Shown here piece by piece: positions 2,633 to 49,684 of a stretch of DNA of 64,000 nucleotides. The stretch lies in IMG/VR virus record IMGVR_UViG_3300048851_000098, positions 32,001 to 96,000 of that record; one strand, 5' to 3'. The notes beneath the pieces are model-generated. The model was not told where the DNA came from. It saw nothing but the letters and a program-made list of their open reading frames with translations, and did no database searches. A program made the position numbers and the translations under genes. The first letter of the stretch is position 1, and every line of letters begins with the position of its first letter. This stretch comes from a virus.

Positions 2633-2705
2633 GCCTCGGTCGTCCAGGGGACTAGGACGCTTGGTTGTCGACCAAGAAACCGGAGTTCGAATCTCCGTCG
2701 AGGCG
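2633..2705 (+). tRNA. trnD: tRNA-Asp(GTC)
   Basis: Cloverleaf; CTTGG-TTGTCGA-CCAAG; T-loop GTTCGAATC. Confidence 0.9.
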
Positions 2706-2707
2706 TT

Positions 2708-2887
2708 ATGAAGTCGGCTACACGTATGTTTGTTGAAGGAATGTCATATCGCGATGTAATGAGAATCGTCGGCATGCGCCAGCGTTACAGTCGCGAAGTG
2801 AATGATCCTGCTCTGCGGCCGGCTCCTCGTCGCAGACCCACGAGACGCCGCGACCGTCGTGCCCCTACAAAACCAATGCGCCGATGA
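2708..2887 (+). CDS. 59-aa basic hypothetical protein
   Basis: ATG 2708 to TGA 2887; ATGA overlap with the ORF at 2884. Confidence 0.45.
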   Translation: MKSATRMFVEGMSYRDVMRIVGMRQRYSREVNDPALRPAPRRRPTRRRDRRAPTKPMRR

Positions 2888-3123
2888 GATCACGAGCTGT
2901 ACGCCGTCATCATCGTTCCCGTCTGATCAAAAGACGCTCTCGCGATGCACTTGCTGCTTCGGTGATGCATTCTCCCGGAAAGCATCCTGAAGGCGCTCTT
3001 GCTGATAATCAGTATTGGCTCGGGTGTAATCTCCCGAACTGCGGCCTTTGCCATCCGTGGAAGCGATGGAGCCGAAGTGCTGATCGCCACAGAGCAAAGA
3101 TCAGCTTGCACGAGGAAATCTGA
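2884..3123 (+). CDS. hypothetical protein
   Basis: ATGA-coupled; CxxxxCxxCH cluster. Confidence 0.45.
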   Translation: MRSRAVRRHHRSRLIKRRSRDALAASVMHSPGKHPEGALADNQYWLGCNLPNCGLCHPWKRWSRSADRHRAKISLHEEI

Positions 3124-3215
3124 GCTGCTAGATTGCATCTCGTGAGCCGTTTCCGCTACATCCGCGCTTCGCGATCAGATCGATCGCGATATACCAGTCG
3201 ATTGCTGCGACTCCG

Positions 3216-3247
3216 CTAGCGCGCGGGTGAGATATCCCGCGCGCTAG
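3216..3247. repeat. perfect 12-bp inverted repeat
   Basis: CTAGCGCGCGGG-TGAGATAT-CCCGCGCGCTAG, 13 nt upstream of tRNA-Leu. Confidence 0.8.
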
Positions 3248-3260
3248 AACAGCAGTGCGC

Positions 3261-3348
3261 GTCGGGGTGGTGAAACATAGGCAGACACGCGGGCCTCAGA
3301 CGCCCGTGCCCCTAACAGGGCGTGAGGGTTCGAATCCCTCTCCCGACA
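3261..3348 (+). tRNA. trnL: tRNA-Leu(CAG)
   Basis: CGGGC-CTCAGAC-GCCCG; long variable arm. Confidence 0.92.
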
Positions 3349-3355
3349 CTTTCAT

Positions 3356-3442
3356 GGCGTCGTGGCGGAATTAGGTATACGCGCGCGGCTGAGTACCGCG
3401 TGGGAGTCAAATCCCTTGGAGGTTCAAGTCCTCTCGACGCTA
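3356..3442 (+). tRNA. trnL: tRNA-Leu(GAG)
   Basis: CGCGG-CTGAGTA-CCGCG; long variable arm. Confidence 0.9.
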
Positions 3443-3459
3443 CCTATAACAAAATAGTT

Positions 3460-3537
3460 GTGGCGATTGTTGAAACTTCAACTGCTCACGTAAGGGGCGA
3501 GCCGAACGTGGGACAGGGAGCTTCAAACAATCGCCAC
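3460..3537 (+). ncRNA. long irregular hairpin RNA, unassigned
   Basis: GTGGCGATTGTT/AACAATCGCCAC 12-bp base plus two further inner helices. Confidence 0.5.
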
Positions 3538-3557
3538 GAGACGAGTGTAGCAGACAC

Positions 3558-3641
3558 GCGCGAGTGGCGGAACGGCAGACGCGCTCGACTCAAAATCGAG
3601 TGTTCCTTGTGAACGTGTGGGTTCGACTCCCACCTTGCGCA
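3558..3641 (+). tRNA. trnL: tRNA-Leu(CAA)
   Basis: CTCGA-CTCAAAA-TCGAG; long variable arm. Confidence 0.92.
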
Positions 3642-3655
3642 TTTAGGTAAAACTT

Positions 3656-3742
3656 GGAGGCTCGCAAGGTTGGCGTGCTTATCGGTCTTGAAAACCGTGA
3701 TGGCTCTAACGAGTCGTGGGGGTTCGATCCCCTCAGCCTCCG
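3656..3742 (+). tRNA. trnS: tRNA-Ser(TGA)
   Basis: CGGT-CTTGAAA-ACCG; long variable arm; G73. Confidence 0.9.
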
Positions 3743-3754
3743 TAGTTCCAACAT

Positions 3755-3836
3755 GCCGGGAAGGCCCCAATGGTGGGGCACCTGACTGTAAATCAGGCGT
3801 CTCTGACAACGGCAGGTTCGATCCCTGCTCCCGGCA
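3755..3836 (+). tRNA. trnY: tRNA-Tyr(GTA)
   Basis: CCTGA-CTGTAAA-TCAGG. Confidence 0.92.
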
Positions 3837-3864
3837 CTAAGAAAACATAAAAACCCCTGCAAAT

Positions 3865-3952
3865 GGACGGTATCCGAGTGGTTAGGGGCGCGACTGCTAA
3901 TCGCGTAAGACAGAGCGAATCTGTCCGCTGGGTTCGATTCCCAGGCCGTCCG
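3865..3952 (+). tRNA. trnS: tRNA-Ser(GCT)
   Basis: CGCGA-CTGCTAA-TCGCG; long variable arm. Confidence 0.92.
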
Positions 3953-4071
3953 TACTAATCGTTCTGATCGTTCTTCTCTTGACTCTTTGTAGAGGAGTGG
4001 TACTGTTGTGTGCAAGTCGCCTCGTAATGAGGCTTTCCCACACACCACGATGACCTTAGGAGGCCATCAGC

Positions 4072-4596
4072 ATGACCGCTCTTCTCGAAGAGATGACGAC
4101 CAGAATCGACAGTCGTATGGAGGAGCTTCAGCCGCTCGTCCAGGAGTACGGCGAGTTGGCCGAGGCCAAGGCTCGCCTGACCGGCAGAGAGGTCAACGTC
4201 TCCCTGTCTCCCGCGCGTCGTCGCGGCCGCCCGAGCGCCAAGGACGGATCGGCTCCCCGCGCCGGCAAGCGCACCGACATGGTGATCGCTTACCTGCGCG
4301 AGCATCCGGACGGTGCCACGGTCAATCAGATCGTGGAGGGCACGGGCACGTCGCTCAACTACACCTACGCGATCGTCCGCGATCTCGTGGACGCGGAGCC
4401 GCCCGTCGCCAAGCGCGCGGAGGGCAGAGTGGTCCTGATCGACCCCAACTACCGTTCGCCGAGCGAGGACGAGAACAAGGGCGACGAGGGGAACAGCGAT
4501 GGCGACTCGACGCAGGGCGAGCAGAAGCCCGACGAGACGCCGGCCCCCGACAAGGCCAAGCCCGCCGCGAGAGCGAGAGCGACCAGCAGAAAGTGA
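4072..4596 (+). CDS. putative nucleoid-associated DNA-binding protein (coiled coil, AT-hook-like RRRGRP, winged HTH)
   Basis: N-terminal heptads; RRRGRP; ATVNQIVEGTGTSLNYTYAIVRDL HTH-like segment; strong RBS AGGAGG; upstream TTGACT-N16-TACTGT. Confidence 0.7.
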   Translation: MTALLEEMTTRIDSRMEELQPLVQEYGELAEAKARLTGREVNVSLSPARRRGRPSAKDGSAPRAGKRTDMVIAYLREHPDGATVNQIVEGTGTSLNYTYAIVRDLVDAEPPVAKRAEGRVVLIDPNYRSPSEDENKGDEGNSDGDSTQGEQKPDETPAPDKAKPAARARATSRK

Positions 4597-4601
4597 TCTC
4601 C

Positions 4602-4648
4602 TAGCGGCTCGCTTGTAATCACTCAGGCGAGCCGCTAAGATCCTTTTT
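4602..4648 (+). terminator. terminator-like hairpin overlapping a promoter
   Basis: TAGCGGCTCGC/GCGAGCCGCTA stem, T-run downstream; TTGTAA(4613)-N17-TAAGAT(4636) lies within it. Confidence 0.55.
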
Positions 4649-4659
4649 GGAACAAAGAA

Positions 4660-4732
4660 GGGTCGTTAGCTCAGTCGGTAGAGCAGGAGACTCTTAATCT
4701 CAAGGCCGTAGGTTCGATCCCTACACGACCCA
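4660..4732 (+). tRNA. trnK: tRNA-Lys(CTT)
   Basis: GAGA-CTCTTAA-TCTC; canonical D and T arms. Confidence 0.93.
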
Positions 4733-4754
4733 TACTGGTTATATCGTTGATATG

Positions 4755-4979
4755 GTCAGAACTACCCCCGAAAGGTAAGAGCGGGCCACGTCCGGGTACC
4801 CCGAGGCCGGACAACAATTTCATAGTGTCCCGAGAGCGGGTAGCTGACGGTAGGAGAAATCCGTACTAAGGTCCGACTCCGGATATCTGTACGTGACAGA
4901 GAAATTGCCTTCGGGAACCGATACACGGAATGATCGGATCGCGGACAAATGTGGGGGTGCGTCCACTATAAAAACGCAC
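4755..4979 (+). ncRNA. multi-branched structured RNA ending in an H-type pseudoknot, unassigned
   Basis: GTCAG(AA)CTACCC 4755/GGGTAGCTGAC 4838; GTCCGG/CCGGAC; pseudoknot GTGG-GG-GTGCGT-CCAC-TATAAAA-ACGCAC 4951-4979. Confidence 0.6.
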
Positions 4980-4983
4980 ACTC

Positions 4984-5059
4984 GCCCCGTTGGTCTAGTT
5001 AGGCTTAGGACGCCTGCCTCTCACGCAGGAGATCACCGGTTCAAATCCGGTACGGGGTT
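4984..5059 (+). tRNA. trnE: tRNA-Glu(CTC)
   Basis: CCTGC-CTCTCAC-GCAGG. Confidence 0.92.
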
Positions 5060-5119
5060 TAGGGAATTGGAAAGCCAACTAATCACAAAGCGCGAGCGTT
5101 TCTAGAGCGACTGCGGCGT

Positions 5120-5311
5120 GCGTCATTAGAGTAGGAGCTATCGATTCCCGATCTCGGAATCGGATTCCTCTTACCTTGCCTTTCCTCTAATGGGTCTGGC
5201 TGGGAAGATCCCCACGCAGCCCTCTGGCACCGTTCCAATGGGATTCGGCATTGCCATTCCCGGAGCAACGCTTTGAGGTCGGTCGGCATACGACTAGAGG
5301 AATCCGATTCC
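5120..5311 (+). ncRNA. candidate structured RNA or paired operator region
   Basis: Perfect 16-bp inverted repeat 5156-5171/5296-5311, crossed by CATTAGAG 5124/CTCTAATG 5185; inner hairpins. Confidence 0.5.
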
Positions 5312-5323
5312 ATCTTCTGCGAA

Positions 5324-5380
5324 GTGGCGTTTGGCCGGACTTGGTAGCCGGTGTAAACGGGTTCGATTCCTGGCGTCACG
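5324..5380 (+). ncRNA. 57-nt D-armless tRNA-like RNA with a TGG-centred loop
   Basis: Acceptor GTGGCGT/GCGTCAC; GCCGG-ACTTGGTAG-CCGGT; T-loop GTTCGATTC; only 3 nt where the D arm should be. Confidence 0.55.
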
Positions 5381-5533
5381 CTTATGAAATTCAGACCAAT
5401 CGACGGCATGGCTGTAGAAGTTGATGATGAGGAAATCATTGTCAACTATTCGGGCGAAGGTACCGATTTGCTCTTGCATCAGGCACATCTGGCCGATAAG
5501 ATCATCGACAGATGCGTGAGAGCGCATGATTCT

Positions 5534-5605
5534 GCCCGGTAAGCTTTGTTGGCGAAGCGCTGGTTTTGTAATCCAGTGAGCAGGGTTCGATTCCTTGACC
5601 GGGCG
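5534..5605 (+). tRNA. trnT: tRNA-Thr(TGT)
   Basis: Acceptor GCCCGGT/ACCGGGC; loop TTTGTAA. Confidence 0.88.
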
Positions 5606-5610
5606 CTTGC

Positions 5611-5985
5611 ATGGACAACCCGCGTCGAGATGAACTTGGCAATTACATCTTTCTGCCGCAAACCCGGTTCGATCCCGAACCTTGGGCGAGAGTTCTGCGC
5701 CGCGATCCATGCTCATATTGCGACGGCGCGGGCGGCACTGTAGATCACATCGTGCCGCTGGCTCATGGCGGCGAGAAGGCCGTTTCTGTCAACGGCACCG
5801 GCGCCTGCTCGACCTGTAACAGTCTGAGCCACCAGAAGTCCGACACGCCCCTCCTCCAATTCCTCCTCAAGCGAGCACAGCGGAGAGACGCCTACGAGCA
5901 CTACGTCAGATCCTCTCCGCAGATCACTCACAGATTCTTCACGGAGGAGCAGTTGGAACTTCTACGTCGAGTTGCAGAAAGCTAG
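5611..5985 (+). CDS. HNH endonuclease
   Basis: CSYC...TVDHIVPLAHGG...NGTGACSTCN. Confidence 0.9.
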   Translation: MDNPRRDELGNYIFLPQTRFDPEPWARVLRRDPCSYCDGAGGTVDHIVPLAHGGEKAVSVNGTGACSTCNSLSHQKSDTPLLQFLLKRAQRRDAYEHYVRSSPQITHRFFTEEQLELLRRVAES

Positions 5986-6010
5986 CGAATACTGTAGTAT
6001 TGACCCTCTT

Positions 6011-6083
6011 GTGCCTATAGCTCAATTGGTAGAGCAGTGGACTTCTAATCCAAAGGTTGAGGGTTCGAGCCCCTCTAGGCATG
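6011..6083 (+). tRNA. trnR: tRNA-Arg(TCT)
   Basis: TGGA-CTTCTAA-TCCA; canonical D and T arms. Confidence 0.93.
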
Positions 6084-6086
6084 TAT

Positions 6087-6473
6087 ATGAAGGAATATAG
6101 AGATTTCATGTGCTCTTGTAAGCCTGACGGCAAAGAGCGATGTGAAGACACTCTAAGAAGAGTTTGCAGACTTCTTAGAGTTGAACCAACAAAGCTTCTC
6201 ACTGGTGTTGTTTACAACATGCAGCATCTTGAGAATTGGAGAGATAGACCGGGAACTGTTTGGATTTGCGGTAATATCGAATCTATCTATTCTGATATGT
6301 GGGCTGCGATCAATGCAGAGATCCAGTATCACGATGAGGAAGAAGATGAATTCAGACTTATTGCAAGAATTCGAGTTCAATGTGATCTGATTGAACATGG
6401 CGTTGCTCGTGTTTATGAGCTGGCGCTTAGAGCAGCAGAAGATTTCGAAGCGTCTATAGCTCAGTCTGGTTAG
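6087..6473 (+). CDS. hypothetical protein
   Basis: ORF between tRNA-Arg and tRNA-Ile; stop lies inside tRNA-Ile. Confidence 0.55.
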   Translation: MKEYRDFMCSCKPDGKERCEDTLRRVCRLLRVEPTKLLTGVVYNMQHLENWRDRPGTVWICGNIESIYSDMWAAINAEIQYHDEEEDEFRLIARIRVQCDLIEHGVARVYELALRAAEDFEASIAQSG

Positions 6474-6524
6474 AGCGTCCGTCTGATAAGCGGAAGGCCC
6501 GAGGTTCAAATCCTTGTAGGCGCA
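6450..6524 (+). tRNA. trnI: tRNA-Ile(GAT)
   Basis: TCCGT-CTGATAA-GCGGA. Confidence 0.93.
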
Positions 6525-6527
6525 CCT

Positions 6528-6737
6528 ATGGCATTGCATAAAGAGGATTTCGACGGACAGATCTGCCACTGCGGCGATGATGGATGCGATATGAGCATTA
6601 TGTATCTGCATTCGAGTTGTCATCTTGGTGCGCCTACGGAGGCTTCGTATTCCGGAGGCGAGATTACAATCAGATGTTCTGTGTGTAAAACCTTTATCGC
6701 TTCGATAGCTGTCGCATCAAATGCAACAACGAATTAG
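6528..6737 (+). CDS. small putative Zn-binding protein
   Basis: CHC...C, YLHSSCH and CSVC clusters. Confidence 0.55.
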   Translation: MALHKEDFDGQICHCGDDGCDMSIMYLHSSCHLGAPTEASYSGGEITIRCSVCKTFIASIAVASNATTN

Positions 6738-7011
6738 TCACAAGCTCACTGCTCACCACTTCCGTCATAATCGTAAAGGCGGAACGATTATTGGTGTCTG
6801 TAGCTGCGGATATCGCCATGGCATCTTTCGCAAGATGCGTCGTACACAGCTCACTCGCGGAATCGTCTGTTTCTTCCGTGGTGGGCATCGATGGGGCGAG
6901 GAAGATACCTGGGAGGTCGGCCCGGCCGGCTTCAGAGACGGCGAAGGTGAAGCTTCTGGCCGTTTCAAGCAATGCGATTTCTGCTATAAGATCGAAGATA
7001 CGCACCTGTAG
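6721..7011 (+). CDS. Cys/His-rich hypothetical protein
   Basis: CSCG...CFFRGGHRW...CDFC; overlaps neighbours. Confidence 0.5.
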   Translation: MQQRISHKLTAHHFRHNRKGGTIIGVCSCGYRHGIFRKMRRTQLTRGIVCFFRGGHRWGEEDTWEVGPAGFRDGEGEASGRFKQCDFCYKIEDTHL

Positions 7012-7073
7012 TGTTAGTGGTAACACGTCAGCCTTCCAAGCTGAAGTGCTCGGTTCGAATCCGAGTAGGTGCT
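7002..7073 (+). tRNA. trnG: tRNA-Gly(TCC)
   Basis: TCAGC-CTTCCAA-GCTGA; U73. Confidence 0.93.
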
Positions 7074-7115
7074 TTTGTTCGCTAGAGGGCGAACGAAACG
7101 AACCGAACAAAAGCC

Positions 7116-7144
7116 TTGACACGCCCCAAAACCTCCTCTAAGAT
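7116..7144 (+). promoter_or_regulatory. sigma70/SigA promoter
   Basis: TTGACA-N17-TAAGAT. Confidence 0.8.
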
Positions 7145-7220
7145 GCAAAGCATGATGCAGCCGCCCACCACTCAGAATTGCCGCCGATGGCGATTCCATC
7201 GACCGTGCCGAAATATGCAT

Positions 7221-7291
7221 GGGCGAGTGGTGCAACGGCAGCACAGCGGCTTCCAACCCCGCTGATCCGGGTTCGATTCCTGGCTCGCCCG
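7221..7291 (+). tRNA. trnW: tRNA-Trp(CCA)
   Basis: Counting from the D arm gives stem GCGGC/CCCGC (C31-C39 mismatch) and loop TT-CCA-AC; G73. Confidence 0.82.
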
Positions 7292-7292
7292 C

Positions 7293-7490
7293 TTCTGGTC
7301 CTCGCCGGCCACAAGGTGAACGTGCGCACTGCGACGGCAGAGCGCGGCCCCCACAGCGTTCACTGGTCGTTTGGACGCCAGAGCGCCTGTCTGAAGCAGA
7401 GGATAAGATAGGCGGCTAGCCGGGTGGTCTTCGCACTCCGCGACCGACAGACGCCACCATACGCCTCTCCAAGACGGAGATAGAGAGGAC
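7293..7490 (+). ncRNA. structured spacer with two copies of an ACGCC + NAAG..GATA hairpin motif
   Basis: GTGAACG/CGTTCAC; CGCCTGTCT-GAAGCAGAGGATA-AGATAGGCG 7384-7414; CCTCTC-CAAGACGGAGATA-GAGAGG 7464-7488. Confidence 0.5.
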
Positions 7491-7495
7491 TTCGA

Positions 7496-7568
7496 TGCGC
7501 GATAGTTCAATTGGCAGAACGCTCGACTGTTAATCGAGTAGTTGAAGGTTCAAATCCTTCTCGCGCAG
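7496..7568 (+). tRNA. trnN: tRNA-Asn(GTT)
   Basis: CTCGA-CTGTTAA-TCGAG; G73. Confidence 0.93.
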
Positions 7569-7569
7569 T

Positions 7570-7752
7570 ATGCGAATAGCAGCTCGTGTAGCACATACAA
7601 GAAACGGACCTGTTGTTACTATCGTTGATGATGTTCCTAACGATTGTGGTCCTGGCGAATATGTGATTCTGGAAGAACGCGAAGGAAAATACACAGAAGT
7701 CGGAGAATTTGGTAAAGATATAGATACTCGCACTGATAGCTCAGTCCGGTAG
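7570..7752 (+). CDS. small hypothetical protein
   Basis: Fills the Asn-Phe spacer; stop lies inside tRNA-Phe. Confidence 0.45.
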   Translation: MRIAARVAHTRNGPVVTIVDDVPNDCGPGEYVILEEREGKYTEVGEFGKDIDTRTDSSVR

Positions 7753-7804
7753 TAGCGCCTGTCTGAAAAGCAGGAGGTCCCTGGTTCGATTCCAGGTCAG
7801 TGCA
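7730..7804 (+). tRNA. trnF: tRNA-Phe(GAA)
   Basis: CCTGT-CTGAAAA-GCAGG. Confidence 0.92.
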
Positions 7805-7805
7805 T

Positions 7806-7880
7806 GGGTCCGTAGCATAATTGGAACAATGCCCCTGGTTGTGGTCCAGGTCGATGCGGATTCGAATTCCGCCGGACCCC
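7806..7880 (+). tRNA. trnH: tRNA-His(GTG)
   Basis: CCTGG-TTGTGGT-CCAGG; C73. Confidence 0.9.
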
Positions 7881-8014
7881 TATGAAAATGATCGGGAGAT
7901 GTGTCGGATTGGGATACTGCTGGTGTCCCGAGTGCCGTCCTCGCGGCGATAGCAGAAAATCAGAAAGACGACGGATCAAGCGGCGCGAGCGTCAGAAATG
8001 GAAGAGAATCGTGA

Positions 8015-8218
8015 ATGGCGCGCAAATCTAGAGATCTGAGAGTAAGAGTAGGAGACGTTCTGACTGAGCATCAAGTCAGTCAGATTGAAAAACTAGAAGC
8101 GGAATGCGTAGCTCTTGCCAAGGAAGCAAATCGTTGGCGAGAGGAAGCGCATCGATTGAAGACTAGACGTAGCGCGGTGCGTGAATGGCTAGCGGGTCGC
8201 CTGCAAAGCGAACGATAG
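8015..8218 (+). CDS. small coiled-coil hypothetical protein
   Basis: Heptad pattern; 3' end overlaps tRNA-Cys. Confidence 0.4.
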   Translation: MARKSRDLRVRVGDVLTEHQVSQIEKLEAECVALAKEANRWREEAHRLKTRRSAVREWLAGRLQSER

Positions 8219-8241
8219 GGGTTCGATTCCCCTCCGCGCTT
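8171..8241 (+). tRNA. trnC: tRNA-Cys(GCA)
   Basis: TCGC-CTGCAAA-GCGA; U73. Confidence 0.88.
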
Positions 8242-8259
8242 CTTTGCTAAACTGCACGC

Positions 8260-8463
8260 ATGAATCTAAGAATTATTCGCAAAGGTACAATTTGGAAGTA
8301 TAAAAACAGAACGGGAGCTGCTACTATTGTAAAAGTCATCTTTGTCCATACCATCGCAAGTGTCACATGGGTTGCCTTTATGCCGATTCACCGCGATAGA
8401 CTTGGCGGGGTAATGACAAGAGAAGACTTTTGTGATACATTCGAGTGGATGTCGAGCAAATAA
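8260..8463 (+). CDS. small hypothetical protein
   Basis: Fills the Cys-Val spacer exactly. Confidence 0.45.
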   Translation: MNLRIIRKGTIWKYKNRTGAATIVKVIFVHTIASVTWVAFMPIHRDRLGGVMTREDFCDTFEWMSSK

Positions 8464-8536
8464 GCCCGGATAACTCAGCGGTCAGAGTGCGGTCCTTACA
8501 AGACTGTGGTCCTTGGTTCGAATCCAAGTCTGGGCA
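8464..8536 (+). tRNA. trnV: tRNA-Val(TAC)
   Basis: CGGTC-CTTACAA-GACTG. Confidence 0.93.
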
Positions 8537-8539
8537 CTT

Positions 8540-8746
8540 ATGAGTCTTTTTGTATGTGAAGAATGTAGATGTATCGAGAACACTGCAACCAGTAAATACT
8601 GGTTGCGTAGCGAGATCGACGGAAAAAGACTCTGTTCGCTGTGTGACCCTCGAATTGGAAAATGGCATAACATCTTTCCGCGTGAGACAATTTCCGAATT
8701 TGAACAACGAATCGGAAGACCAGTAGATCGCAGCAACTATTTGTAA
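8540..8746 (+). CDS. small Zn-finger-like protein
   Basis: FVCEECRCIENTA...LCSLCDP...WH. Confidence 0.6.
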   Translation: MSLFVCEECRCIENTATSKYWLRSEIDGKRLCSLCDPRIGKWHNIFPRETISEFEQRIGRPVDRSNYL

Positions 8747-8752
8747 CAACCA

Positions 8753-8827
8753 CGGGATATAGCGCAGCCTGGCTAGCGCGCTCGCTTTGGGAGCGAGAGG
8801 TCGAAGGTTCGAATCCTTCTATCCCGA
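8753..8827 (+). tRNA. trnP: tRNA-Pro(TGG)
   Basis: CTCGC-TTTGGGA-GCGAG. Confidence 0.94.
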
Positions 8828-8828
8828 C

Positions 8829-8899
8829 TGCGGAGTAGTCTAACGGCAAGACGCACGGTTCTGGCCCGTGAGTAGAGGGTTCGAGTCCTTCCTCCGCAT
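8829..8899 (+). tRNA. trnQ: tRNA-Gln(CTG)
   Basis: CACGG-TTCTGGC-CCGTG. Confidence 0.92.
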
Positions 8900-9002
8900 T
8901 ATGCCGCTACATGATCTTATTGCTCTAGGAATTCTTATTGCTGTGATACTGCTAATTGGATTGCTTTTGTTGATTTTCTTCGAACTGAAAGACTGACCCC
9001 TT

Positions 9003-9074
9003 GGGGGTCTAGCTCGAAGGTCGAGCAGGGAGCTTTTAACTCTCCGGTGATGGGTTCGATTCCCTCGGCCCCCA
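9003..9074 (+). tRNA. trnK: tRNA-Lys(TTT)
   Basis: GGGAG-CTTTTAA-CTCTC. Confidence 0.9.
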
Positions 9075-9076
9075 CT

Positions 9077-9268
9077 ATGAAAACTGAAACGTTTTATTGT
9101 GATCGGTGTAAAATAGAAGTTCATCCGGAGCGTCTGCATAGGATCACACATGATTGGTATCCTGCTGCGAATGTCTCTGAGACTTATGATTTTTGCGTAA
9201 ATTGTATTACTGATATCGTAAATGTAATCAATCGCGCAAGTGATACAAATCAGTTTCGATTTCGATGA
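9077..9268 (+). CDS. small CxxC...CxxC protein
   Basis: YCDRC...DFCVNC. Confidence 0.55.
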   Translation: MKTETFYCDRCKIEVHPERLHRITHDWYPAANVSETYDFCVNCITDIVNVINRASDTNQFRFR

Positions 9269-9339
9269 TGGCGGATCGTCTAATGGTAAGACGCAAGCCT
9301 TTGGAGCTTGCTATCGGGGTTCGAATCCCTGTCCGCCAG
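9269..9339 (+). tRNA. trnQ: tRNA-Gln(TTG)
   Basis: CAAGC-CTTTGGA-GCTTG. Confidence 0.93.
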
Positions 9340-9448
9340 TGGCAATGACTAGACAGCGTACGAGTTGAACAGGGAAGCTGGCACGTCAGGCGTGTAGAGG
9401 TTGAGTCGGTACCAGGCTCGCCGTCCCTTGCGGCCCTTGTCATTGCCA
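9340..9448 (+). ncRNA. branched RNA closed by a perfect 10-bp helix, unassigned
   Basis: TGGCAATGAC/GTCATTGCCA; inner AGGGA/TCCCT and CACG-TCAGG-CGTG. Confidence 0.5.
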
Positions 9449-9468
9449 ATTCGTTTACCGCAGCACCT

Positions 9469-9542
9469 ACCCCGGTAGCTCAACTGGACAGAGCGCTGGT
9501 CTACGGAACCAGAGGTTTGGGGTTCGAATCCCTAGCGGGGTG
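9469..9542 (+). tRNA. trnR: tRNA-Arg(ACG)
   Basis: CTGGT-CTACGGA-ACCAG. Confidence 0.92.
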
Positions 9543-9552
9543 CTGTAACAAT

Positions 9553-9646
9553 GGGCCGGTAGCCAAGGTTAGGACAGGCCACTCCCCGGCAGTGGTAGCT
9601 GTCGGAAGAGAAGGAGTGAAAGCGGGTTCGAATCCCGTCCGGTCCA
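9553..9646 (+). ncRNA. tRNA-like RNA with Ala identity (G3-U70, A73) and the anticodon loop replaced by a 27-nt hairpin module
   Basis: Acceptor GGGCCGG/CCGGTCC-A; D arm GCC/GGC; stem ACTCC/GGAGT enclosing CCGGCAG-TGGTAG-CTGTCGG-AAGAGAA; T arm GCGGG-TTCGAAT-CCCGT. Confidence 0.75.
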
Positions 9647-9647
9647 T

Positions 9648-9677
9648 TTGACACAGACTATGATTCTTGTGTATAGT
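9648..9677 (+). promoter_or_regulatory. sigma70/SigA promoter with extended -10
   Basis: TTGACA-N18-TATAGT preceded by TGTG. Confidence 0.75.
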
Positions 9678-9791
9678 AGCTCTACCTTCGCAAAAGGTGC
9701 GTTACGAGTAGGTTCTGGAAATTTCTGCAAACCATCAACTGGTTGAGAAACGCCTAAAGTTGCATCGAAGTCAGAATAGATGCAGCTCCGC

Positions 9792-9862
9792 TGCGGATTG
9801 GTGGATTGGTACCACGCGAGGCTCATAACCTTGAGGGACGGGTTCGATTCCCGTATCCGCTA
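9792..9862 (+). tRNA. trnM: tRNA-Met(CAT); unpaired 1:72 suggests initiator-like, Ile2 not excluded
   Basis: CGAGG-CTCATAA-CCTTG; U1-U72 mismatch. Confidence 0.85.
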
Positions 9863-9940
9863 TGTGCGATAGCTGGCCGCGCATCTCTGAGTGTGCCTTT
9901 GGCATTTATCAGACAAGGGTCTTCGACTCCCAGCTAACTA

Positions 9941-10012
9941 GGGCGATTGGTGTAATCGGGAACACACTAGCTTTGCAAGCTAGAATTGGGGGTTCGACTC
10001 CCCCATTGTCCA
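9941..10012 (+). tRNA. trnA: tRNA-Ala(TGC)
   Basis: CTAGC-TTTGCAA-GCTAG; G3-U70; A73. Confidence 0.92.
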
Positions 10013-10107
10013 TGCCGAGCCGGATGTGATGGATTATCTTGGTAAATGGTGCGACCCACCTACCGAGTTCGAGTCTCGGGTATCCACCGCAATTGATTTG
10101 CTCGGCA
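10013..10107 (+). ncRNA. Y RNA (distal copy with a T-arm only)
   Basis: TGCCGAGC/GCTCGGCA ends; CGAGCCGGA-N9-TTATCT...ATTTGCTCG motif as in the three Ro60-adjacent RNAs; CCGAG-TTCGAGT-CTCGG. Confidence 0.75.
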
Positions 10108-10133
10108 ATCTAAATCCACAAAGGAGGCGAATC

Positions 10134-10169
10134 ATGCTGAAGCGCCTGCTTGTCCTTAGGACAAGCTAG
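10134..10169 (+). promoter_or_regulatory. putative leader peptide MLKRLLVLRTS
   Basis: Strong RBS AAGGAGG 10121-10127; ORF contains hairpin GCTTGTCC/GGACAAGC. Confidence 0.45.
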
Positions 10170-10415: not shown

Positions 10416-10447
10416 GGGGTGAGCTAATGTCTCCCCACAAGGCAACG

Positions 10448-10471
10448 GCCCCGCTTTCGAGTGGGGCTTTT
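10448..10471 (+). terminator. intrinsic terminator
   Basis: GCCCCGC-TTTCGA-GTGGGGC-TTTT. Confidence 0.75.
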
Positions 10472-10997: not shown

Positions 10998-11394
10998 TCC
11001 TTTCATCGCTAGAACTGTGGGAAAAGAAGACACACAGTCGCGAGCCAAGGCTGATTCTGCGTCTAGACGTGCAAATGAACAGGTGTCAGGACTTGATGCC
11101 GGTAACGGGTGGCCTCGCAACGCGAGAGGCACACCAATGGTCGAGGCAGAAATGTCTTGTGCCGAGCTGATTCCAACAGGAAACTACGCCAATGTATCTA
11201 TTGGTCCTGCTCGCATCCATTTTCTCATCGATCCTGATCGCGATCTCGAATCAGGAAATTACTTCACGTCTGAGCAGTGGACGAATATCACTCGTGCTCT
11301 CAATGAAGCTGCGGAATTGGTAGGAACTGACGTTATTGCCGTACAACGCAATCTCGTCATGGAGTCGATGCAAGAGCAGATTGGACAGAGATGA
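10987..11394 (+). CDS. hypothetical protein
   Basis: Coupled ORF in the replication operon. Confidence 0.65.
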   Translation: MATNPFIARTVGKEDTQSRAKADSASRRANEQVSGLDAGNGWPRNARGTPMVEAEMSCAELIPTGNYANVSIGPARIHFLIDPDRDLESGNYFTSEQWTNITRALNEAAELVGTDVIAVQRNLVMESMQEQIGQR

Positions 11395-11723
11395 TGGATG
11401 AAAGACAGATTAGAGATGAGGGATTTGTCAGAGTGGATGAGGAAGGAACACCTGTTGTTGAGCATCGCCCTCTCGACATGAAGGATCTCGCCGGCCCGCT
11501 CGATGTAGTTCATCTCCCGCAGGTTCTCAACGACGAGTTCGGACTGAGCCTCAGTGAAGCTCGACGCATCCTCACCTACGGCGTGGAGATCGATAGCCAG
11601 CCGTGGACTGGTGGCTTGGATGTGCCGCTTGAAGAGATCGATGGAAAGCTCGTGAGAGTAAAGGATCAGACGAAGAGTCTGATGTTCACGTATCGCCCAG
11701 CGCGCGACCGCTATTTCGGCTAA
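11391..11723 (+). CDS. stand-alone S4-like RNA-binding domain resembling the TyrRS C-terminus
   Basis: VHLPQVLNDEFGLSLSEARRIL..GVEIDSQP...LDVP...DGKLVRV resembles the S4 SxSEARR..I..G.V..DG pattern; recalled similarity only. Confidence 0.55.
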   Translation: MMDERQIRDEGFVRVDEEGTPVVEHRPLDMKDLAGPLDVVHLPQVLNDEFGLSLSEARRILTYGVEIDSQPWTGGLDVPLEEIDGKLVRVKDQTKSLMFTYRPARDRYFG

Positions 11724-45479: not shown

Positions 45480-45673
45480 CACGCAGGGTGGGATTTGAAC
45501 CACACGACCTCCGGGTTGTATCGAGTCTCCGAGCGACTACTTGCGCGCCGGCCGGAATACGCAAGTGCTTATCATCGGCTGTCCGGCGGTCGATGCCTCG
45601 ACCCTCCATGTTTACCGATTTCCACCTGCTCTTTGACTCTTCCCGGTGCTCTACCAGACTGAGCTACCCGCGT
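45480..45673 (-). ncRNA. tRNA-like RNA with a 126-nt structured insert replacing the anticodon loop
   Basis: Acceptor ACGCGGG/CCTGCGT; D arm GCTC-AGTCTGGTA-GAGC; stem CCGGG/CCCGG around 45516-45641; AGGTC variable region; T-loop GTTCAAATC. Confidence 0.75.
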
Positions 45674-45840: not shown

Positions 45841-45842
45841 CC

Positions 45843-47001: not shown

Positions 47002-47021
47002 GACTCCTTTCCTCGTGTTCC

Positions 47022-48704
47022 TTAGATGCTCTCCTGAATGAACTGCGCCATGATCTGTGGTGCGCCAGAGTCGAACCCGACGACATCCAACATGCCTGGA
47101 TCTCTTGGGTTAGCGATGCTGTATTCGGTAGCTGTGTAGGCAGCAGCAATCAGCTTTGCTCTGATACCGCTTTCCTTGCGATAGAACTCCAAAGCTTGCG
47201 ATGCGTGAATCCCACCATTCCACGACTCGTTATCGGTGTGGATCTCGAAAACGTCGTATTCCTTGCCGTTCTCACGGGCGTACATGATTGGCAGTGCGCA
47301 ATCTGTAGCACCCATAAACGGAGACATCGCTCGCATCGCGCGATCAACATCATCGAGACGCTGACGGGGGCTGAGTGCCATCGGTGTCAAGCCAGGGTAG
47401 ATCTCTCTACCGGAGTTCCGACTGCGGTAATAACTGTCCCCTCCGCTGGTAAACGCAACCACGTCGTAGGGATCGCCCGTCTTCATGCTGGCGAGCGACA
47501 TCGCACCGGCCGCCTCTGCGGCCACGAACCCTTCGATGCCGGCGACGTACCTCGGGTACGCGCCCCACATCGAACCGGAGATATCGAGCGCAATCAGACG
47601 ACGTGCGCCAGTCGGCTCCAAATTGTCGAACGCGAGATAGAACGCCTCATCGAGGGCGTCGAGAATCTGAGGCACAGGTGTCCACGTCTGCCCGCGCCGG
47701 CCCACCCCCGCCGCATAGGTCTTTGAGGCCAGCAGCACGTTGGCAGGGTGGATTCGCGCAGCGCTGATTACCTCCGCGTCAGTGAGCGTTCTGCGGATGA
47801 TGTCCGTCTCTCTGCTTGTGCCAGTGATCACACCATCGCGTGTCATGTTGGCGAGATTGCGAATCATCGCCGTCATGGGCATTTGTGCATTCAGAAGTGC
47901 AGACCAGACCTCGGGCTGATTTCTGTGCTCAGTCAGAATCGCCTCGCGTGGCAGACGGAATCTTTCGATCAGTCTGGCAGTAGCTCTCGGCGTTCTCGCT
48001 CTGAGAGCCTTGCCGGCAGCCTGCACGATCTCCGGGAGATCTCTTTTCTTTCCCTTGTATCTGTTGGTCGCCCACTGGAAGAGCATCTTCATCTCTTCCA
48101 TATCTTCGTGAACAACTCTCTCGCGATCCTCTGGATTTGGATGTGCGAGACGCAACAGATCCTCGTGCGACCATCCGTCGCGCTGTGGATACTTCACGAG
48201 CTGGTAGGCGAGCTTCGGAATTGGCTTCTTCAGATACCAATTCGCCACGGCGTTTCTCATACCACGGCCCCAGCCGGCGAACTGCTCGCGGAACGTAACG
48301 AATTGGAACAAATGTGTGCCGATACGGCAGACATTGTTCACGTTCTCGAATGCGTACTGGCGTGTTGCGTCATCACCAAGCGCAGAGGCCATGGCGAGAG
48401 CGAACACGGCTTGATCATTCTTCGGTGCGCGAGCGTCCATCGAGATTTCAACGATGGTGTCCACGGTTCTGATTCCGTCAAGTTTGCAACACTCGATTAC
48501 GCACTCGGCGTTTTCACGAGTCAGCTTGCGCTCACCCGTGTAGTAGGTCCCGCCCTCGGAACCGAGAATGAGGAATCGCCGCAGACGAGCAAAGGGATCG
48601 ATCTCATAGACGAAACCACCAGCGTTGTTCTCGACCTGATCTTGACCAGGGATCGGTTCGCTCTGTGGTGTTTCTTTTGCTCCGTAATTTCTCAGATACG
48701 ACAT
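47022..48704 (-). CDS. rsr: Ro60/Rsr TROVE-domain RNA-binding protein with a vWA domain
   Basis: NNAGGFVY, RLRRFLILGSEGGTYY, VCRIGTHLF, YQLVKY.QRDGWSH.DLLRLAHP, MPMTAMIRNL, MIDAS ALDISGSM, TDC, TDNE, MLDVVGFD. Confidence 0.97.
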   Translation of the reverse strand: MSYLRNYGAKETPQSEPIPGQDQVENNAGGFVYEIDPFARLRRFLILGSEGGTYYTGERKLTRENAECVIECCKLDGIRTVDTIVEISMDARAPKNDQAVFALAMASALGDDATRQYAFENVNNVCRIGTHLFQFVTFREQFAGWGRGMRNAVANWYLKKPIPKLAYQLVKYPQRDGWSHEDLLRLAHPNPEDRERVVHEDMEEMKMLFQWATNRYKGKKRDLPEIVQAAGKALRARTPRATARLIERFRLPREAILTEHRNQPEVWSALLNAQMPMTAMIRNLANMTRDGVITGTSRETDIIRRTLTDAEVISAARIHPANVLLASKTYAAGVGRRGQTWTPVPQILDALDEAFYLAFDNLEPTGARRLIALDISGSMWGAYPRYVAGIEGFVAAEAAGAMSLASMKTGDPYDVVAFTSGGDSYYRSRNSGREIYPGLTPMALSPRQRLDDVDRAMRAMSPFMGATDCALPIMYARENGKEYDVFEIHTDNESWNGGIHASQALEFYRKESGIRAKLIAAAYTATEYSIANPRDPGMLDVVGFDSGAPQIMAQFIQESI

Positions 48705-48762
48705 TTCGATCCCTTCGCATATGTGATTTCTTCAGCGCCCCTAAGAGGCTACGAACCTCTAT

Positions 48763-48862
48763 CTGTTATCGGAAAGCTCAGCCGGTGTGCATCGCCTGCG
48801 CGTGGCCGCGTTAGAAGCACGACCAGCGAGAGGGACCGGCAGCCTATGACACTTTCCAACAG
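48763..48862 (-). ncRNA. structured RNA presenting an isolated anticodon-like stem-loop (CUUCUAA)
   Basis: CTGTT-GGAAAG/CTTTCC..AACAG, GCCGGT/ACCGGC, TGGTCGTG-CTTCTAA-CGCGGCCA (48803-48825). Confidence 0.5.
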
Positions 48863-48888
48863 GACTCGTACGAGAGTCGGGGCAAGAA

Positions 48889-49025
48889 AGGCTACGAGCA
48901 AATTGTTTGGATTCGATATAGGCGCTCTAACCAGGCTGAGCTACACGCCTTTTGAGCGTGACGGGATTCGAACCCGCGACCTCCCTCTTATGCGGAGATA
49001 ATCGATTCCATCCGGCTCGTAGCCT
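48889..49025 (-). ncRNA. YrlA-type Y RNA with a permuted tRNA-like domain
   Basis: AGGCTACGAGC/GCTCGTAGCCT ends; T arm (GGGTTCGAATCCC), closed acceptor (CACGC/GCGTG), then D arm (TAGCTCAGCCTGGTTAGAGC); adjacent to Ro60. Confidence 0.9.
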
Positions 49026-49033
49026 TCAAGAGA

Positions 49034-49106
49034 TCTCGCGAACAAATAGTTGGTGATGGGTATTGTCTGTTCGATAGAGATAACCCAAAACCTCCGGCTC
49101 GCGAGA
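49034..49106 (-). ncRNA. minimal 73-nt Y RNA without a tRNA module
   Basis: TCTCGCGAGC/GTTCGCGAGA ends; CGAGCCGGA-N9-TTATCT...ATTTGTTCG. Confidence 0.8.
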
Positions 49107-49128
49107 GCAGTTATTCAGTTGTAAGGGG

Positions 49129-49270
49129 CTGGTCGAACAAATTAGTTGAAAAGCGAGATTTTTTACCACTGCTCTACCAATTGAGCTACCGACGCTCTTC
49201 GAGCCTCGGGCAGGAATCGAACCTGCAACCTTTGGTCCCTGAGATAACGCTTATCGTCCGGCTCGACCAG
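49129..49270 (-). ncRNA. second YrlA-type Y RNA
   Basis: CTGGTCGAGC/GTTCGACCAG ends; T arm GCAGG-TTCGATT-CCTGC, closed acceptor, D arm TAGCTCAATTGGTAGAGC. Confidence 0.9.
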
Positions 49271-49276
49271 TTGTAA

Positions 49277-49441
49277 CTATTTTCTCCTTGACCCTCGCCA
49301 ATCAGCTCTTCGTGTCTTTCTATTATGAGCCCATTTTCTTGCTGCTCTTCTAGCAGTGGCCCACATAAATCTACGCTGCTTTTCACTTCTGAATTTACCG
49401 CCGCCATGTTTTCTCTGGCGAGAGCGAGAAGCCATTTTCAT
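49277..49441 (-). CDS. 54-aa Arg-rich small protein (not in the ORF track)
   Basis: MKMASRSRQRKHGGGKFRSEKQRRFMWATARRAARKWAHNRKTRRADWRGSRRK; GGGAGA RBS. Confidence 0.6.
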   Translation of the reverse strand: MKMASRSRQRKHGGGKFRSEKQRRFMWATARRAARKWAHNRKTRRADWRGSRRK

Positions 49442-49516
49442 CTATCTCCCGAAAATCTCTTCCGCCCGACATCCGAAGCATACCATGAGATCCGAATCAG
49501 ATGCAAGGAATCCCTG

Positions 49517-49684
49517 CAAAAGAAAAGAACTGCCGAGAGATCGCGATACGCGGTGTCTCTCGACAGTCCTTTTCCCCCAACACAGCGACCAGGCGGGACG
49601 TGGTCACTGTCATGGTGAGCCTGCAAGCGAATGCCGGAAGAGGATCAGCAAAACCGGCGGGCTTGCAGGCTCTCCACGATTATA
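49517..49684 (-). ncRNA. putative trans-acting sRNA with its own promoter and terminator
   Basis: TGnTATAAT (49679-49687); 12-bp stem GAGCCTGCAAGC/GCTTGCAGGCTC; 16-nt loop TTTTGCTGATCCTCTT; 11-bp terminator stem followed by TTCTTTTCTTTT. Confidence 0.65.

What the first reader, a model, noticed from the sequence alone, without database searches (positions are those of the whole stretch)
2633..49684. Umbrella hypothesis: an RNA-based tRNA-decoy and Ro60 system spread over two loci
Seen together in one window: a 20-amino-acid tRNA set, Ro60, four Y RNAs, at least three tRNA mimics each altered in a different arm, an isolated anticodon stem-loop RNA and a stand-alone S4-like domain. Known: bacterial Rsr/Y RNA is linked to tRNA damage and RNA repair, and phage tRNAs can counter host anticodon nucleases. 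Inference: a coordinated anti-defence or translation-takeover system that uses tRNA-shaped non-decoding RNAs. No RNA ligase is visible in this window.
Basis: inference. Interest (0 to 1): 0.75.

Follow-up and report, generated by a model that had tools for sequence, protein, structure and literature searches.

The report
Phage Ro60, Y RNAs, tRNA array
A 124-kb phage carries the known Ro60 RNA-binding protein with four matching Y RNAs, one hidden among its 27 tRNA genes 37 kb away, but the proposed single "tRNA-decoy" system is only partly borne out.

Summary
The core is real. The window holds a 27-gene tRNA array covering all 20 amino acids, an intact Ro60 (TROVE plus vWA) gene, and three tandem Y RNAs directly upstream of it. 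A fourth paralogous Y RNA abuts tRNA-Ala in the tRNA array, 37 kb away on the other strand. The composite Y motif occurs exactly four times in the whole 124-kb genome.

Two further RNAs (9553-9646 and 45481-45673) have tRNA bodies but enlarged, non-decoding anticodon arms.

Three listed items fail. The "isolated anticodon stem-loop" and the 5.3-kb "mimic" fold no better than shuffles. The S4-like domain has no family support. One "mimic" is simply the inside of Y4.

In 151 other Ro60 loci, tandem Y RNA arrays are common. About a third of the loci sit in or next to same-strand tRNA arrays, with Y RNAs sometimes starting a few bases after a tRNA. Ro60 also occurs without tRNAs, and no RNA ligase is present here.

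Verdict: a split-architecture variant of the known phage Ro60/Y RNA module. It is linked to tRNA transcription and processing. An anti-defence decoy role is untested.

By-product: a non-permuted, tRNA-topology Y-like RNA class in 30 of the 151 loci.

The parts
2632..10012 (+). tRNA array: 26 decoding tRNAs for all 20 amino acids plus one non-decoding tRNA-bodied RNA. It is interspersed with small ORFs, HNH endonuclease genes and spacers. No tRNA gene encodes its CCA end.
3755..3836 (+). tRNA-Tyr(GTA) with a long variable arm. Default ARAGORN missed it.
   Evidence: Rfam 47.7 bits; anticodon loop CUGUAAA read from the sequence
5318..5376 (+). Claimed arm-deleted tRNA mimic. It is a weak T-loop-like motif and is not supported as a structured RNA.
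   Evidence: fold z -0.08; not found by the strict T-arm scan
9553..9646 (+). tRNA-bodied RNA with alanine identity marks (G3:U70, A73). The anticodon loop is replaced by a 7-8-bp hairpin plus an AAGAGAA bulge.
   Evidence: Rfam tRNA 35 bits; fold -43.5 kcal/mol, z -3.7
9648..9677 (+). Promoter-like site TTGACA-18-TATAGT (11 of 12) ahead of tRNA-Met, tRNA-Ala and Y4
   Evidence: consensus match only
9792..9862 (+). tRNA-Met(CAT) with a U1/U72 mismatch, which is initiator-like
9941..10012 (+). tRNA-Ala(TGC). Its discriminator base is directly followed by Y4.
10013..10107 (+). Y4: fourth Y RNA, with an 8-bp terminal stem, bulged C, GGA/UUU helix, a second helix, a small hairpin and a T-arm-like hairpin
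10447..10468 (+). Terminator-like hairpin closing the unit tRNA-Met, tRNA-Ala, Y4 and a small basic ORF
11391..11723 (+). This is not established, and the ORF lies in the replication operon just before DnaB.
   Evidence: no hit; weak structural hint only
45481..45673 (-). tRNA-bodied RNA (acceptor, D arm, GGG/CCC anticodon stem, T arm) with a 126-nt structured insert in place of the anticodon loop. It has its own promoter-like site at 45840-45812 and a terminator-like hairpin at 45395-45375.
47022..48704 (-). rsr / Ro60 gene, 560 aa: TROVE ring plus vWA domain. The MIDAS motif DxSxS is invariant in the alignment.
48746..48888 (-). rsr leader, claimed to be a free anticodon stem-loop RNA or a divergent Y RNA. 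Not supported beyond a single hairpin.
   Evidence: fold z -0.84
48889..49025 (-). Y3: YrlA-type Y RNA with a circularly permuted tRNA-like module (T arm, closed acceptor, D arm)
   Evidence: Rfam YrlA 42.9 bits; fold z -4.5
49034..49106 (-). Y2: minimal Y RNA made of the Ro-binding stem plus a small hairpin
   Evidence: Rfam ceN72-3 (nematode Y homologue) 30.4 bits; fold z -3.8
49129..49270 (-). Y1: YrlA-type Y RNA with a tRNA-like module
   Evidence: Rfam YrlA 41.7 bits; fold z -3.6
49278..49441 (-). Small, very basic ORF (54 aa) directly upstream of Y1. Its role is unknown.
   Evidence: phrog_1375, E 2.7e-5

Best explanation
This is a phage copy of the known Ro60 (Rsr) / Y RNA ribonucleoprotein module, in a split layout. 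Three Y RNAs sit in a row upstream of rsr. A fourth paralogue sits at the end of the phage's tRNA array, in a unit that reads promoter, tRNA-Met, tRNA-Ala, Y4, small ORF, terminator.

Shown:
- All four Y RNAs keep the same Ro60-binding helix: terminal stem, bulged C, GGA/UUU, and a GCCGGANG motif that is one base away from the published GNCGAAN0-1G.
- Their inner modules differ. Y1 and Y3 carry permuted tRNA-like domains, Y2 a small hairpin, and Y4 a hairpin plus a T arm.

Inferred:
- The Y RNAs are cut out of polycistronic precursors by the host's tRNA-processing enzymes. Y4's 5' end would be made by 3' processing of tRNA-Ala, because no tRNA here encodes CCA.
- Each Y RNA binds the outer face of the Ro60 ring. 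Its variable module tethers or gates a partner, most likely a host 3'-5' exoribonuclease such as PNPase, as in the D. radiodurans RYPER complex and Thermus phage phiLo.
- This redirects decay or quality control of structured RNAs during infection, possibly including the phage's own tRNA precursors.

The tRNA array itself is an ordinary translational supply set. It shares transcription and processing with Y RNAs, as it does in many other Ro60 phages. The two tRNA-bodied RNAs with enlarged anticodon arms are real, but their role is unassigned.
For: - Ro60 domains are present and MIDAS residues are invariant. 354 phage records encode relatives.
- The Y motif occurs exactly four times in the genome. 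Stems covary among the four paralogues. Folds beat shuffles at z -2.4 to -4.5. Rfam gives YrlA and sbRNA hits.
- Tandem same-strand Y motifs occur in 77 of 166 Ro60 loci, with up to 7 copies, against 6 single hits on the opposite strand. One provirus has six tandem Y RNAs, and the closest relative, L216, has four.
- 54 of 151 loci have flanking tRNAs, 491 on the same strand and 0 on the opposite. Twelve Y RNAs start 15 nt or less after a tRNA. In Streptomyces phage Gilson, Ro60 lies inside the tRNA array with Y motifs between tRNAs.
- Literature: YrlA RNAs occur in 254 bacteria and 22 phages; a D. radiodurans Yrn2-tRNAAsp-Yrn1 polycistronic precursor exists; RNase P cleaves M. smegmatis YrlA (PMC4201824). 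phiLo Ro60 binds two phage Y-like RNAs and host PNPase (PMC12135203).
- A promoter-like site and a terminator-like hairpin bracket the Y4 unit. No tRNA gene encodes CCA.
Against: - The YrlA hits are below Rfam's gathering score (42 against 69 bits).
- No expression, processing or binding data exist for this uncultured phage.
- No credible distal Y RNA was found in five other whole records, so the split layout is so far unique.
- The partner of the RNP is inferred from other systems only.
- The protein neighbours of rsr are not conserved in other loci and give no functional hint.
- The record is about 85% complete.
Confidence: 0.65

Rival explanations
1. The tRNA set, Ro60, Y RNAs and tRNA-shaped non-decoding RNAs form one anti-defence system. 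The tRNA-like RNAs act as decoys or sponges for host tRNA-targeting nucleases or tRNA-binding factors, and Ro60/Y RNPs handle the damaged RNA.
For: - Two well-formed tRNA bodies lack a decoding loop.
- Y1 and Y3 mimic tRNA.
- Ro60 and tRNA arrays are frequently found together.
- Bacterial rsr/Y RNA genes sit in an RNA repair operon regulated by damaged tRNAs (PMC7790460).
- tRNA arrays have been proposed as anti-defence (PMC12803027).
Against: - No RtcB, Rnl2-type ligase or CCA enzyme is present.
- The decoys lack the anticodon loop that anticodon nucleases recognise (my knowledge of PrrC, RloC and colicins).
- Three of the listed parts fail their checks.
- Ro60 with Y RNAs occurs without tRNAs, and arrays occur far from Ro60.
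- The two tRNA-bodied RNAs have no detectable counterparts elsewhere.
Confidence: 0.15
2. The Ro60/Y RNP works mainly on the phage's own tRNA production. It monitors or helps trim the 3' ends of the 27 CCA-less, densely packed tRNA precursors, as Rsr helps 23S rRNA maturation with RNase II and RNase PH in D. radiodurans. The tRNA-like Y modules place it at tRNA-processing sites.
For: - tRNAs near Ro60 are strictly on its strand, and Y RNAs often abut tRNA 3' ends.
- Y RNAs are interleaved with tRNAs in Gilson.
- All tRNA genes here lack CCA.
- Rsr has a known role in rRNA maturation with exonucleases (PMC4201824, introduction).
Against: - Ro60 phages exist that have few or no tRNAs.
- Many tRNA-rich phages lack Ro60 (general knowledge).
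- There is no direct evidence for this role.
Confidence: 0.15
3. The features are unrelated. The tRNA array serves codon supply. Ro60/Y is a self-contained cassette. Y4 is a stray duplicate. The tRNA-bodied RNAs are decaying tRNA genes hit by insertions.
For: - The loci are 37 kb apart on opposite strands.
- No close relatives are available to show conservation.
- The split layout was not seen elsewhere.
Against: - Y4 keeps every pair of the Ro-binding helix, with compensatory changes in both stems, so it is under selection.
- The 9553-9646 RNA keeps a perfect tRNA core and a stable fold (z -3.7).
- 45481-45673 has its own promoter-like and terminator-like sites.
Confidence: 0.05

Closest known systems
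YrlA/YrlB Y RNAs with Rsr (Salmonella Typhimurium, Mycobacterium smegmatis; Rfam RF02553; PMC4201824)
   Same: Y RNAs lie directly upstream of rsr on the same strand. They have a bulged-C Ro-binding helix and a circularly permuted tRNA-like domain (T arm, closed acceptor, D arm) in Y1 and Y3. A second, simpler Y RNA type is also present (Y2, Y4).
   Different: - The motif is GCCGGANG rather than GNCGAAN0-1G.
- Rfam scores are below the gathering cut-off.
- There are four paralogues, one of them 37 kb from rsr on the other strand.
- There is no rtcBA repair operon.
Ro of Mycobacterium cluster C phages (Bxz1/Cali) and other actinophage Ro60 genes
   Same: Large phage with about 30 tRNAs and a Ro60 gene. 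The proteins are 47% identical.
   Different: There is no DNA similarity. G+C is about 52%. The Y RNA consensus differs. In Cali only two tRNAs lie near Ro.
Thermus phage phiLo Ro60 with Yrl1/Yrl2 and host PNPase (PMC12135203)
   Same: A phage Ro60 has several phage-encoded Y-like RNAs upstream of the gene. It serves as the model for hijacking a host exoribonuclease.
   Different: That system is experimentally shown and this one is not. No tRNA array link is described there.
D. radiodurans Yrn2-tRNAAsp-Yrn1 polycistronic precursor (PMC4201824)
   Same: Y RNAs are co-transcribed with a tRNA and released by processing.
   Different: That case is one tRNA next to rsr. Here a Y RNA ends a 27-gene array remote from rsr.
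Streptomyces phage Gilson (NC_048742) tRNA region
   Same: A dispersed tRNA array with HNH endonuclease, RNase H and small ORFs. Y-like motifs lie between tRNAs.
   Different: In Gilson, Ro60 lies inside the array. Here it has moved to the opposite-strand arm.
Stable RNAs C and D in the phage T4 tRNA cluster (from memory, not checked)
   Same: Non-tRNA stable RNAs are encoded within a phage tRNA cluster and processed along with it.
   Different: No Ro60 is involved, and those RNAs are unrelated in sequence.

Membership tests
Ro60 / Rsr (TROVE) | TROVE (HEAT-repeat ring) domain | tested here: met
   PF05731, 8.8e-48, 164 bits
Ro60 / Rsr (TROVE) | C-terminal vWA domain with MIDAS motif | tested here: met
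   PF25045, 7.2e-45; D374, S376 and S378 invariant in a 17-sequence alignment
Y RNA, YrlA type (RF02553) | Score at or above the Rfam gathering threshold | tested here: not met
   42.9 and 41.7 bits against 69; E 3.5e-6 and 7.9e-6 over the whole window, about 1e-7 when only the 1,061-nt stretch is searched
Y RNA, YrlA type (RF02553) | Helix formed by the 5' and 3' ends, with a bulged C and the GNCGAAN0-1G motif | tested here: met
   All four have the stem, the bulged C and GCCGGANG, one base off the published motif
Y RNA, YrlA type (RF02553) | tRNA-like domain: T arm, loop-closed acceptor, D arm | tested here: met
   Met for Y1 and Y3 (alignments). Y2 has none and Y4 has only a T-arm-like hairpin.
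Y RNA, YrlA type (RF02553) | Encoded within about 4 kb of rsr (the criterion used in PMC4201824) | tested here: met
   Met for Y1-Y3 (185-566 nt upstream). Not met for Y4, which is 37 kb away on the opposite strand.
Y RNA, YrlA type (RF02553) | Bound by Ro60 | not testable with these tools
   Needs EMSA, RIP or CLIP
tRNA (RF00005), for 9553-9646 | Cloverleaf core above the gathering score | tested here: met
   35 bits against 29
tRNA (RF00005), for 9553-9646 and 45481-45673 | 5-bp anticodon stem with a 7-nt loop that presents an anticodon | tested here: not met
   Inserts of 26 nt and 126 nt. ARAGORN's intron mode gives only a forced solution.
Non-permuted 'tRNA-topology' Y-like RNA (class defined here from 27 sequences, model R1) | Anticodon arm replaced by a hairpin that carries the Ro-binding helix (CTTGCC, loop, GGGCCGA.G...GGTTATC) | tested here: inconclusive
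   The arm of 45481-45673 aligns at only 14.6 bits. The arm of 9553-9646 is skipped. R1 also scores plain tRNAs through the tRNA body.
S4 RNA-binding domain (PF01479) | Match to the S4 profile | tested here: not met
   No Pfam hit at E up to 0.1, and none in PHROGs or PDB. The only hint is TM 0.37-0.42 from a model with pLDDT 0.41.
Rtc-type RNA repair operon | RtcB or another RNA ligase alongside rsr and the Y RNAs | tested here: not met
   PF01139 and PF09414 are absent from the 124-kb record. T4 Rnl1 was not searched.

The most novel reading that the evidence does not exclude
Phages that encode Ro60 use the tRNA body as a general chassis for non-decoding RNAs. These RNAs would be transcribed and processed with tRNAs, and perhaps charged: 9553-9646 has alanine identity. 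They would carry alternative 'payload' arms in place of the anticodon. In 30 of 151 other loci the payload is the Ro60-binding helix itself, giving a non-permuted Y RNA. In this phage the two tRNA-bodied RNAs would carry new payloads that recruit Ro60 or trap host tRNA-binding or defence factors.
Probability: 0.2. Interest if true: 0.75.

Novelty: new variant of a known kind. Interest (0 to 1): 0.5.

Why it matters
- Y RNA surveys so far looked only within 4 kb of rsr and discarded hits overlapping tRNA clusters (PMC4201824). A Y RNA fused to the 3' end of a tRNA, 37 kb from rsr, shows that such surveys can undercount Y RNAs.
- The recurrent placement of Ro60 and Y RNAs inside phage tRNA arrays points to a link between Ro60 RNPs and tRNA transcription or processing. 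That link could be tested in cultured Streptomyces and Mycobacterium phages.
- The non-permuted tRNA-topology Y-like RNAs found in relatives, if unpublished, would fill the gap between tRNAs and the circularly permuted YrlA. They bear on how Y RNAs evolved from tRNAs.

Tried and rejected
The 112-125-kb contigs whose Ro60 is 50-55% identical (P0003, P0006, P0008, P0018, P0019) could therefore not be fetched, and conservation of Y4 and of the tRNA-bodied RNAs in near relatives remains untested.
- No near DNA match exists in the phage collection. The DNA polymerase finds only one 58% relative in IMG/VR.
- An exact-pattern scan of IMG/VR for the private Y motif gave mostly chance hits, apart from L110 with its six-Y array.
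- MAFFT misaligned the three Y RNAs, so stems were tabulated by script.
- A distal motif hit in G007 lies in coding sequence with no closing stem and was rejected.
- Model R1 scores ordinary tRNAs through the tRNA body, so it cannot by itself assign membership.
- A distant search with the 45481-45673 RNA found only generic tRNA pieces.
- Odd-length tRNAs in other Ro60 loci are not counterparts of 9553-9646.
- Identical T-arm 17-mers (Y3 with 9553-9646; the 62260 hairpin with tRNA-Met) were judged uninformative, because the T arm leaves few free positions.
- The ARAGORN 'permuted tmRNA' call at 9553-10204 was treated as spurious.

Full report
**Setting**

The window is bases 32001-96000 of a 124,171-bp IMG/VR virus record, linear and about 85% complete. 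It has replication genes (DnaB, primase, DNA polymerase) and a portal gene. There is no near DNA match among 50,697 phage records, and only one 58%-identical polymerase relative in IMG/VR.

**The tRNA array**

- ARAGORN finds 26 tRNAs at 2632-10012, all on the plus strand.
- Rfam adds one more at 3755-3836. Its loop reads CUGUAAA, so it is tRNA-Tyr. All 20 amino acids are therefore covered.
- None of the genes encodes CCA.

**Ro60**

- The ORF at 47022-48704(-) matches TROVE (8.8e-48) and the Ro60 vWA domain (7e-45).
- The MIDAS residues are invariant among 17 relatives.
- 354 cultured-phage records encode relatives. The best are Mycobacterium cluster C phages at 47% identity.

**The four Y RNAs**

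- Upstream of rsr on the same strand lie three RNAs: 49129-49270, 49034-49106 and 48889-49025. A fourth starts at 10013, the base after the discriminator of tRNA-Ala.
- CGAGCCGGA occurs four times in the window, only at these sites.
- The composite motif GAGCCGGA.G..TTATCT...ATTTGYTCG occurs exactly four times in the whole genome.
- Each RNA forms an 8-13-bp terminal stem whose outer pairs differ but stay complementary. Each also has a bulged C, a GGA/UUU helix and a second helix that covaries.
- Folds beat shuffles, with z from -2.4 to -4.5.
- Y1 and Y3 match Rfam YrlA end to end at 41.7 and 42.9 bits. This is below the gathering score of 69; the E-values are about 1e-7 when only the 1,061-nt stretch is searched and 3.5e-6 to 7.9e-6 over the whole window.
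- Y2 matches a nematode stem-bulge RNA family that I know to be Y RNA homologues.
- The motif GCCGGANG differs by one base from the published GNCGAAN0-1G (PMC4201824).

I regard all four as Y RNAs and the fourth as well beyond chance.

**The claimed tRNA mimics**

- 9553-9646 is a convincing tRNA body. It scores 35 bits on Rfam tRNA and has G3:U70 and A73. A 26-nt hairpin-plus-bulge sits where the anticodon loop should be.
- 45481-45673(-) has acceptor, D and T arms and a GGG/CCC anticodon stem around a 126-nt insert. It has its own promoter-like and terminator-like sites. ARAGORN's intron mode gives only a forced reading, Rfam finds nothing in the insert, and no phage record matches it.
- The 'mimic' near 5324 folds no better than shuffles (z -0.08), and so does the 'free anticodon stem-loop' at 48746-48888 (z -0.84).
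- The 10021-10087 'mimic' is the interior of Y4.

**The S4-like ORF and RNA repair enzymes**

- The 'S4-like' ORF at 11391-11723 has no Pfam, PHROG or PDB sequence match. Its only support is TM 0.37-0.42 to TyrRS and S4 clusters, from a model with pLDDT 0.41.
- The whole record lacks RtcB, Rnl2-type ligase and CCA-adding enzyme.

**Comparison with other Ro60 loci**

I fetched 166 Ro60 loci (151 unique) from IMG/VR and metagenomes.

- A generic Y 5' motif is found on the Ro60 strand in 77 loci, with up to seven copies. On the opposite strand it gives only six single hits.
- When a closing stem is also required, there are 126 Y RNAs in 60 loci.
- One 129-kb provirus has six tandem Y RNAs upstream of Ro60. 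The closest relative, at 55% identity, has four. Tandem Y arrays are therefore ordinary.
- 54 of the 151 loci have tRNAs in their flanks: 491 tRNAs, all on the Ro60 strand. Twelve Y RNAs begin 15 nt or less after a tRNA.
- In the cultured Streptomyces phage Gilson, Ro60 lies inside a dispersed tRNA array that also holds HNH and RNase H genes, as the array here does. Y-like motifs lie between its tRNAs.
- The link is not obligatory. In whole records, Ro60 is 55 kb (G003) or 16 kb (G004) from the array, adjacent to it (G005, G007), or in a 63%-complete record with no tRNA hit (G002).
- Gordonia phage Cashline has Ro60 and two Y motifs beside its integrase and no tRNA nearby.
- No credible distal Y RNA turned up in five other records.
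- The protein neighbours of rsr here are not conserved elsewhere. Only Y RNAs and tRNAs recur.

**Literature**

- YrlA-type Y RNAs are known in 254 bacteria and 22 phages. That survey looked only within 4 kb of rsr and discarded hits overlapping tandem tRNAs.
- D. radiodurans makes a Yrn2-tRNAAsp-Yrn1 precursor, and RNase P cleaves M. smegmatis YrlA (PMC4201824).
- Thermus phage phiLo Ro60 binds two phage Y-like RNAs and host PNPase (PMC12135203).
- Jumbo-phage Ro60 has been noted as part of RNA repair toolkits (PMC7824862).

**Interpretation**

The best reading is a known Ro60/Y RNA module in a split layout. One Y RNA gene sits in a tRNA transcription unit bracketed by a promoter-like site at 9648-9677 and a terminator-like hairpin at 10447-10468. 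That Y RNA would be released by tRNA 3' processing.

The Y RNAs' different inner modules probably tether different partners to Ro60. Host PNPase is the most likely partner, by analogy. The idea of one coordinated tRNA-decoy system remains a hypothesis. Several of its parts fail, there is no repair enzyme, and the elements occur independently in other phages.

**By-product**

Many other Ro60 loci carry 104-160-nt RNAs with normal tRNA topology in which the anticodon arm is replaced by a hairpin bearing the Ro-binding helix.

- There are 41 such RNAs in 30 of 151 loci, none on the opposite strand, and 39 of them lie 72-876 nt upstream of Ro60.
- In an alignment of 27 of them, 23 of 26 consensus pairs show compensatory changes. 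This includes the arm helices, which were not used to select the sequences.
- Published YrlA RNAs are described as circularly permuted tRNAs with closed acceptor stems (bioRxiv 10.1101/312249).
- The two tRNA-bodied RNAs in this window share the topology but show no clear Ro-binding helix.

**Tool note**

Noticed in passing
L219:2130-2252; L015:2572-2693 and 2764-2883; L047:2659-2781; L081:270-389; L222:722-845 and 973-1098; L227, L230, L265, L278 (several each): This is a class of 104-160-nt RNAs just upstream of Ro60 with normal (non-permuted) tRNA topology. The anticodon arm is replaced by a hairpin that carries the Y RNA Ro60-binding helix. There are 41 in 30 of 151 loci and none on the opposite strand. 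23 of 26 consensus pairs show compensatory changes. No description was found in the held papers.
   Followed up: partly
window 2706-9268 (+): Nine or ten of the 27 tRNAs are followed within 1-5 nt by an ATG opening a 31-128-aa ORF, against 11% at random positions. Several of these ORFs end just before the next tRNA (8540-8746, 8901-8996, 9077-9268). This suggests tRNA-punctuated, possibly leaderless mRNAs. Several products are Cys-rich.
   Followed up: partly
window 62260-62276 (-): A lone perfect T-arm hairpin (ACGGGTTCGATTCCCGT, identical to that of tRNA-Met) sits directly after the stop codon of ORF 62277-62573. No tRNA body surrounds it.
   Followed up: no
window 49278-49441 (-) and 10239-10415 (+): A small, very basic ORF lies next to the Y RNAs at both loci. 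The first matches phrog_1375, of unknown function. The two are not obviously related to each other.
   Followed up: partly
window 49540-49684 (-): A strongly structured RNA (fold -66 kcal/mol, z -4.5) lies between a TGATATAAT box and a terminator-like hairpin, upstream of the Y RNA array. It is probably an independent sRNA.
   Followed up: no
window 50034-50507 (-): A Fic/DOC-family ORF (7e-9) lies upstream of the Ro60 region. One other Ro60 locus (L056) also has a Fic relative nearby.
   Followed up: no
window 46543-47001 (-): The ORF just downstream of rsr has a weak match (E 9e-4, 41 residues) to a PHROG annotated as RNase E. It has no Pfam hit.
   Followed up: no
L110 7900-9050 (-) = G001:116102-117116: A 129-kb provirus has six tandem Y-like RNAs upstream of Ro60, with a small ORF between the fifth and sixth.
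   Followed up: partly
window 9792-9862 (+): The only tRNA-Met(CAT) has a U1/U72 mismatch and a purine11:pyrimidine24 pair. These are initiator-like features, so an elongator tRNA-Met may be missing from the set.
   Followed up: no
window 1409-1840, 2143-2511, 5611-5985 (+): RNase H and two HNH endonuclease genes lie in and beside the tRNA array. Streptomyces phage Gilson has the same mix in its tRNA region.
   Followed up: no
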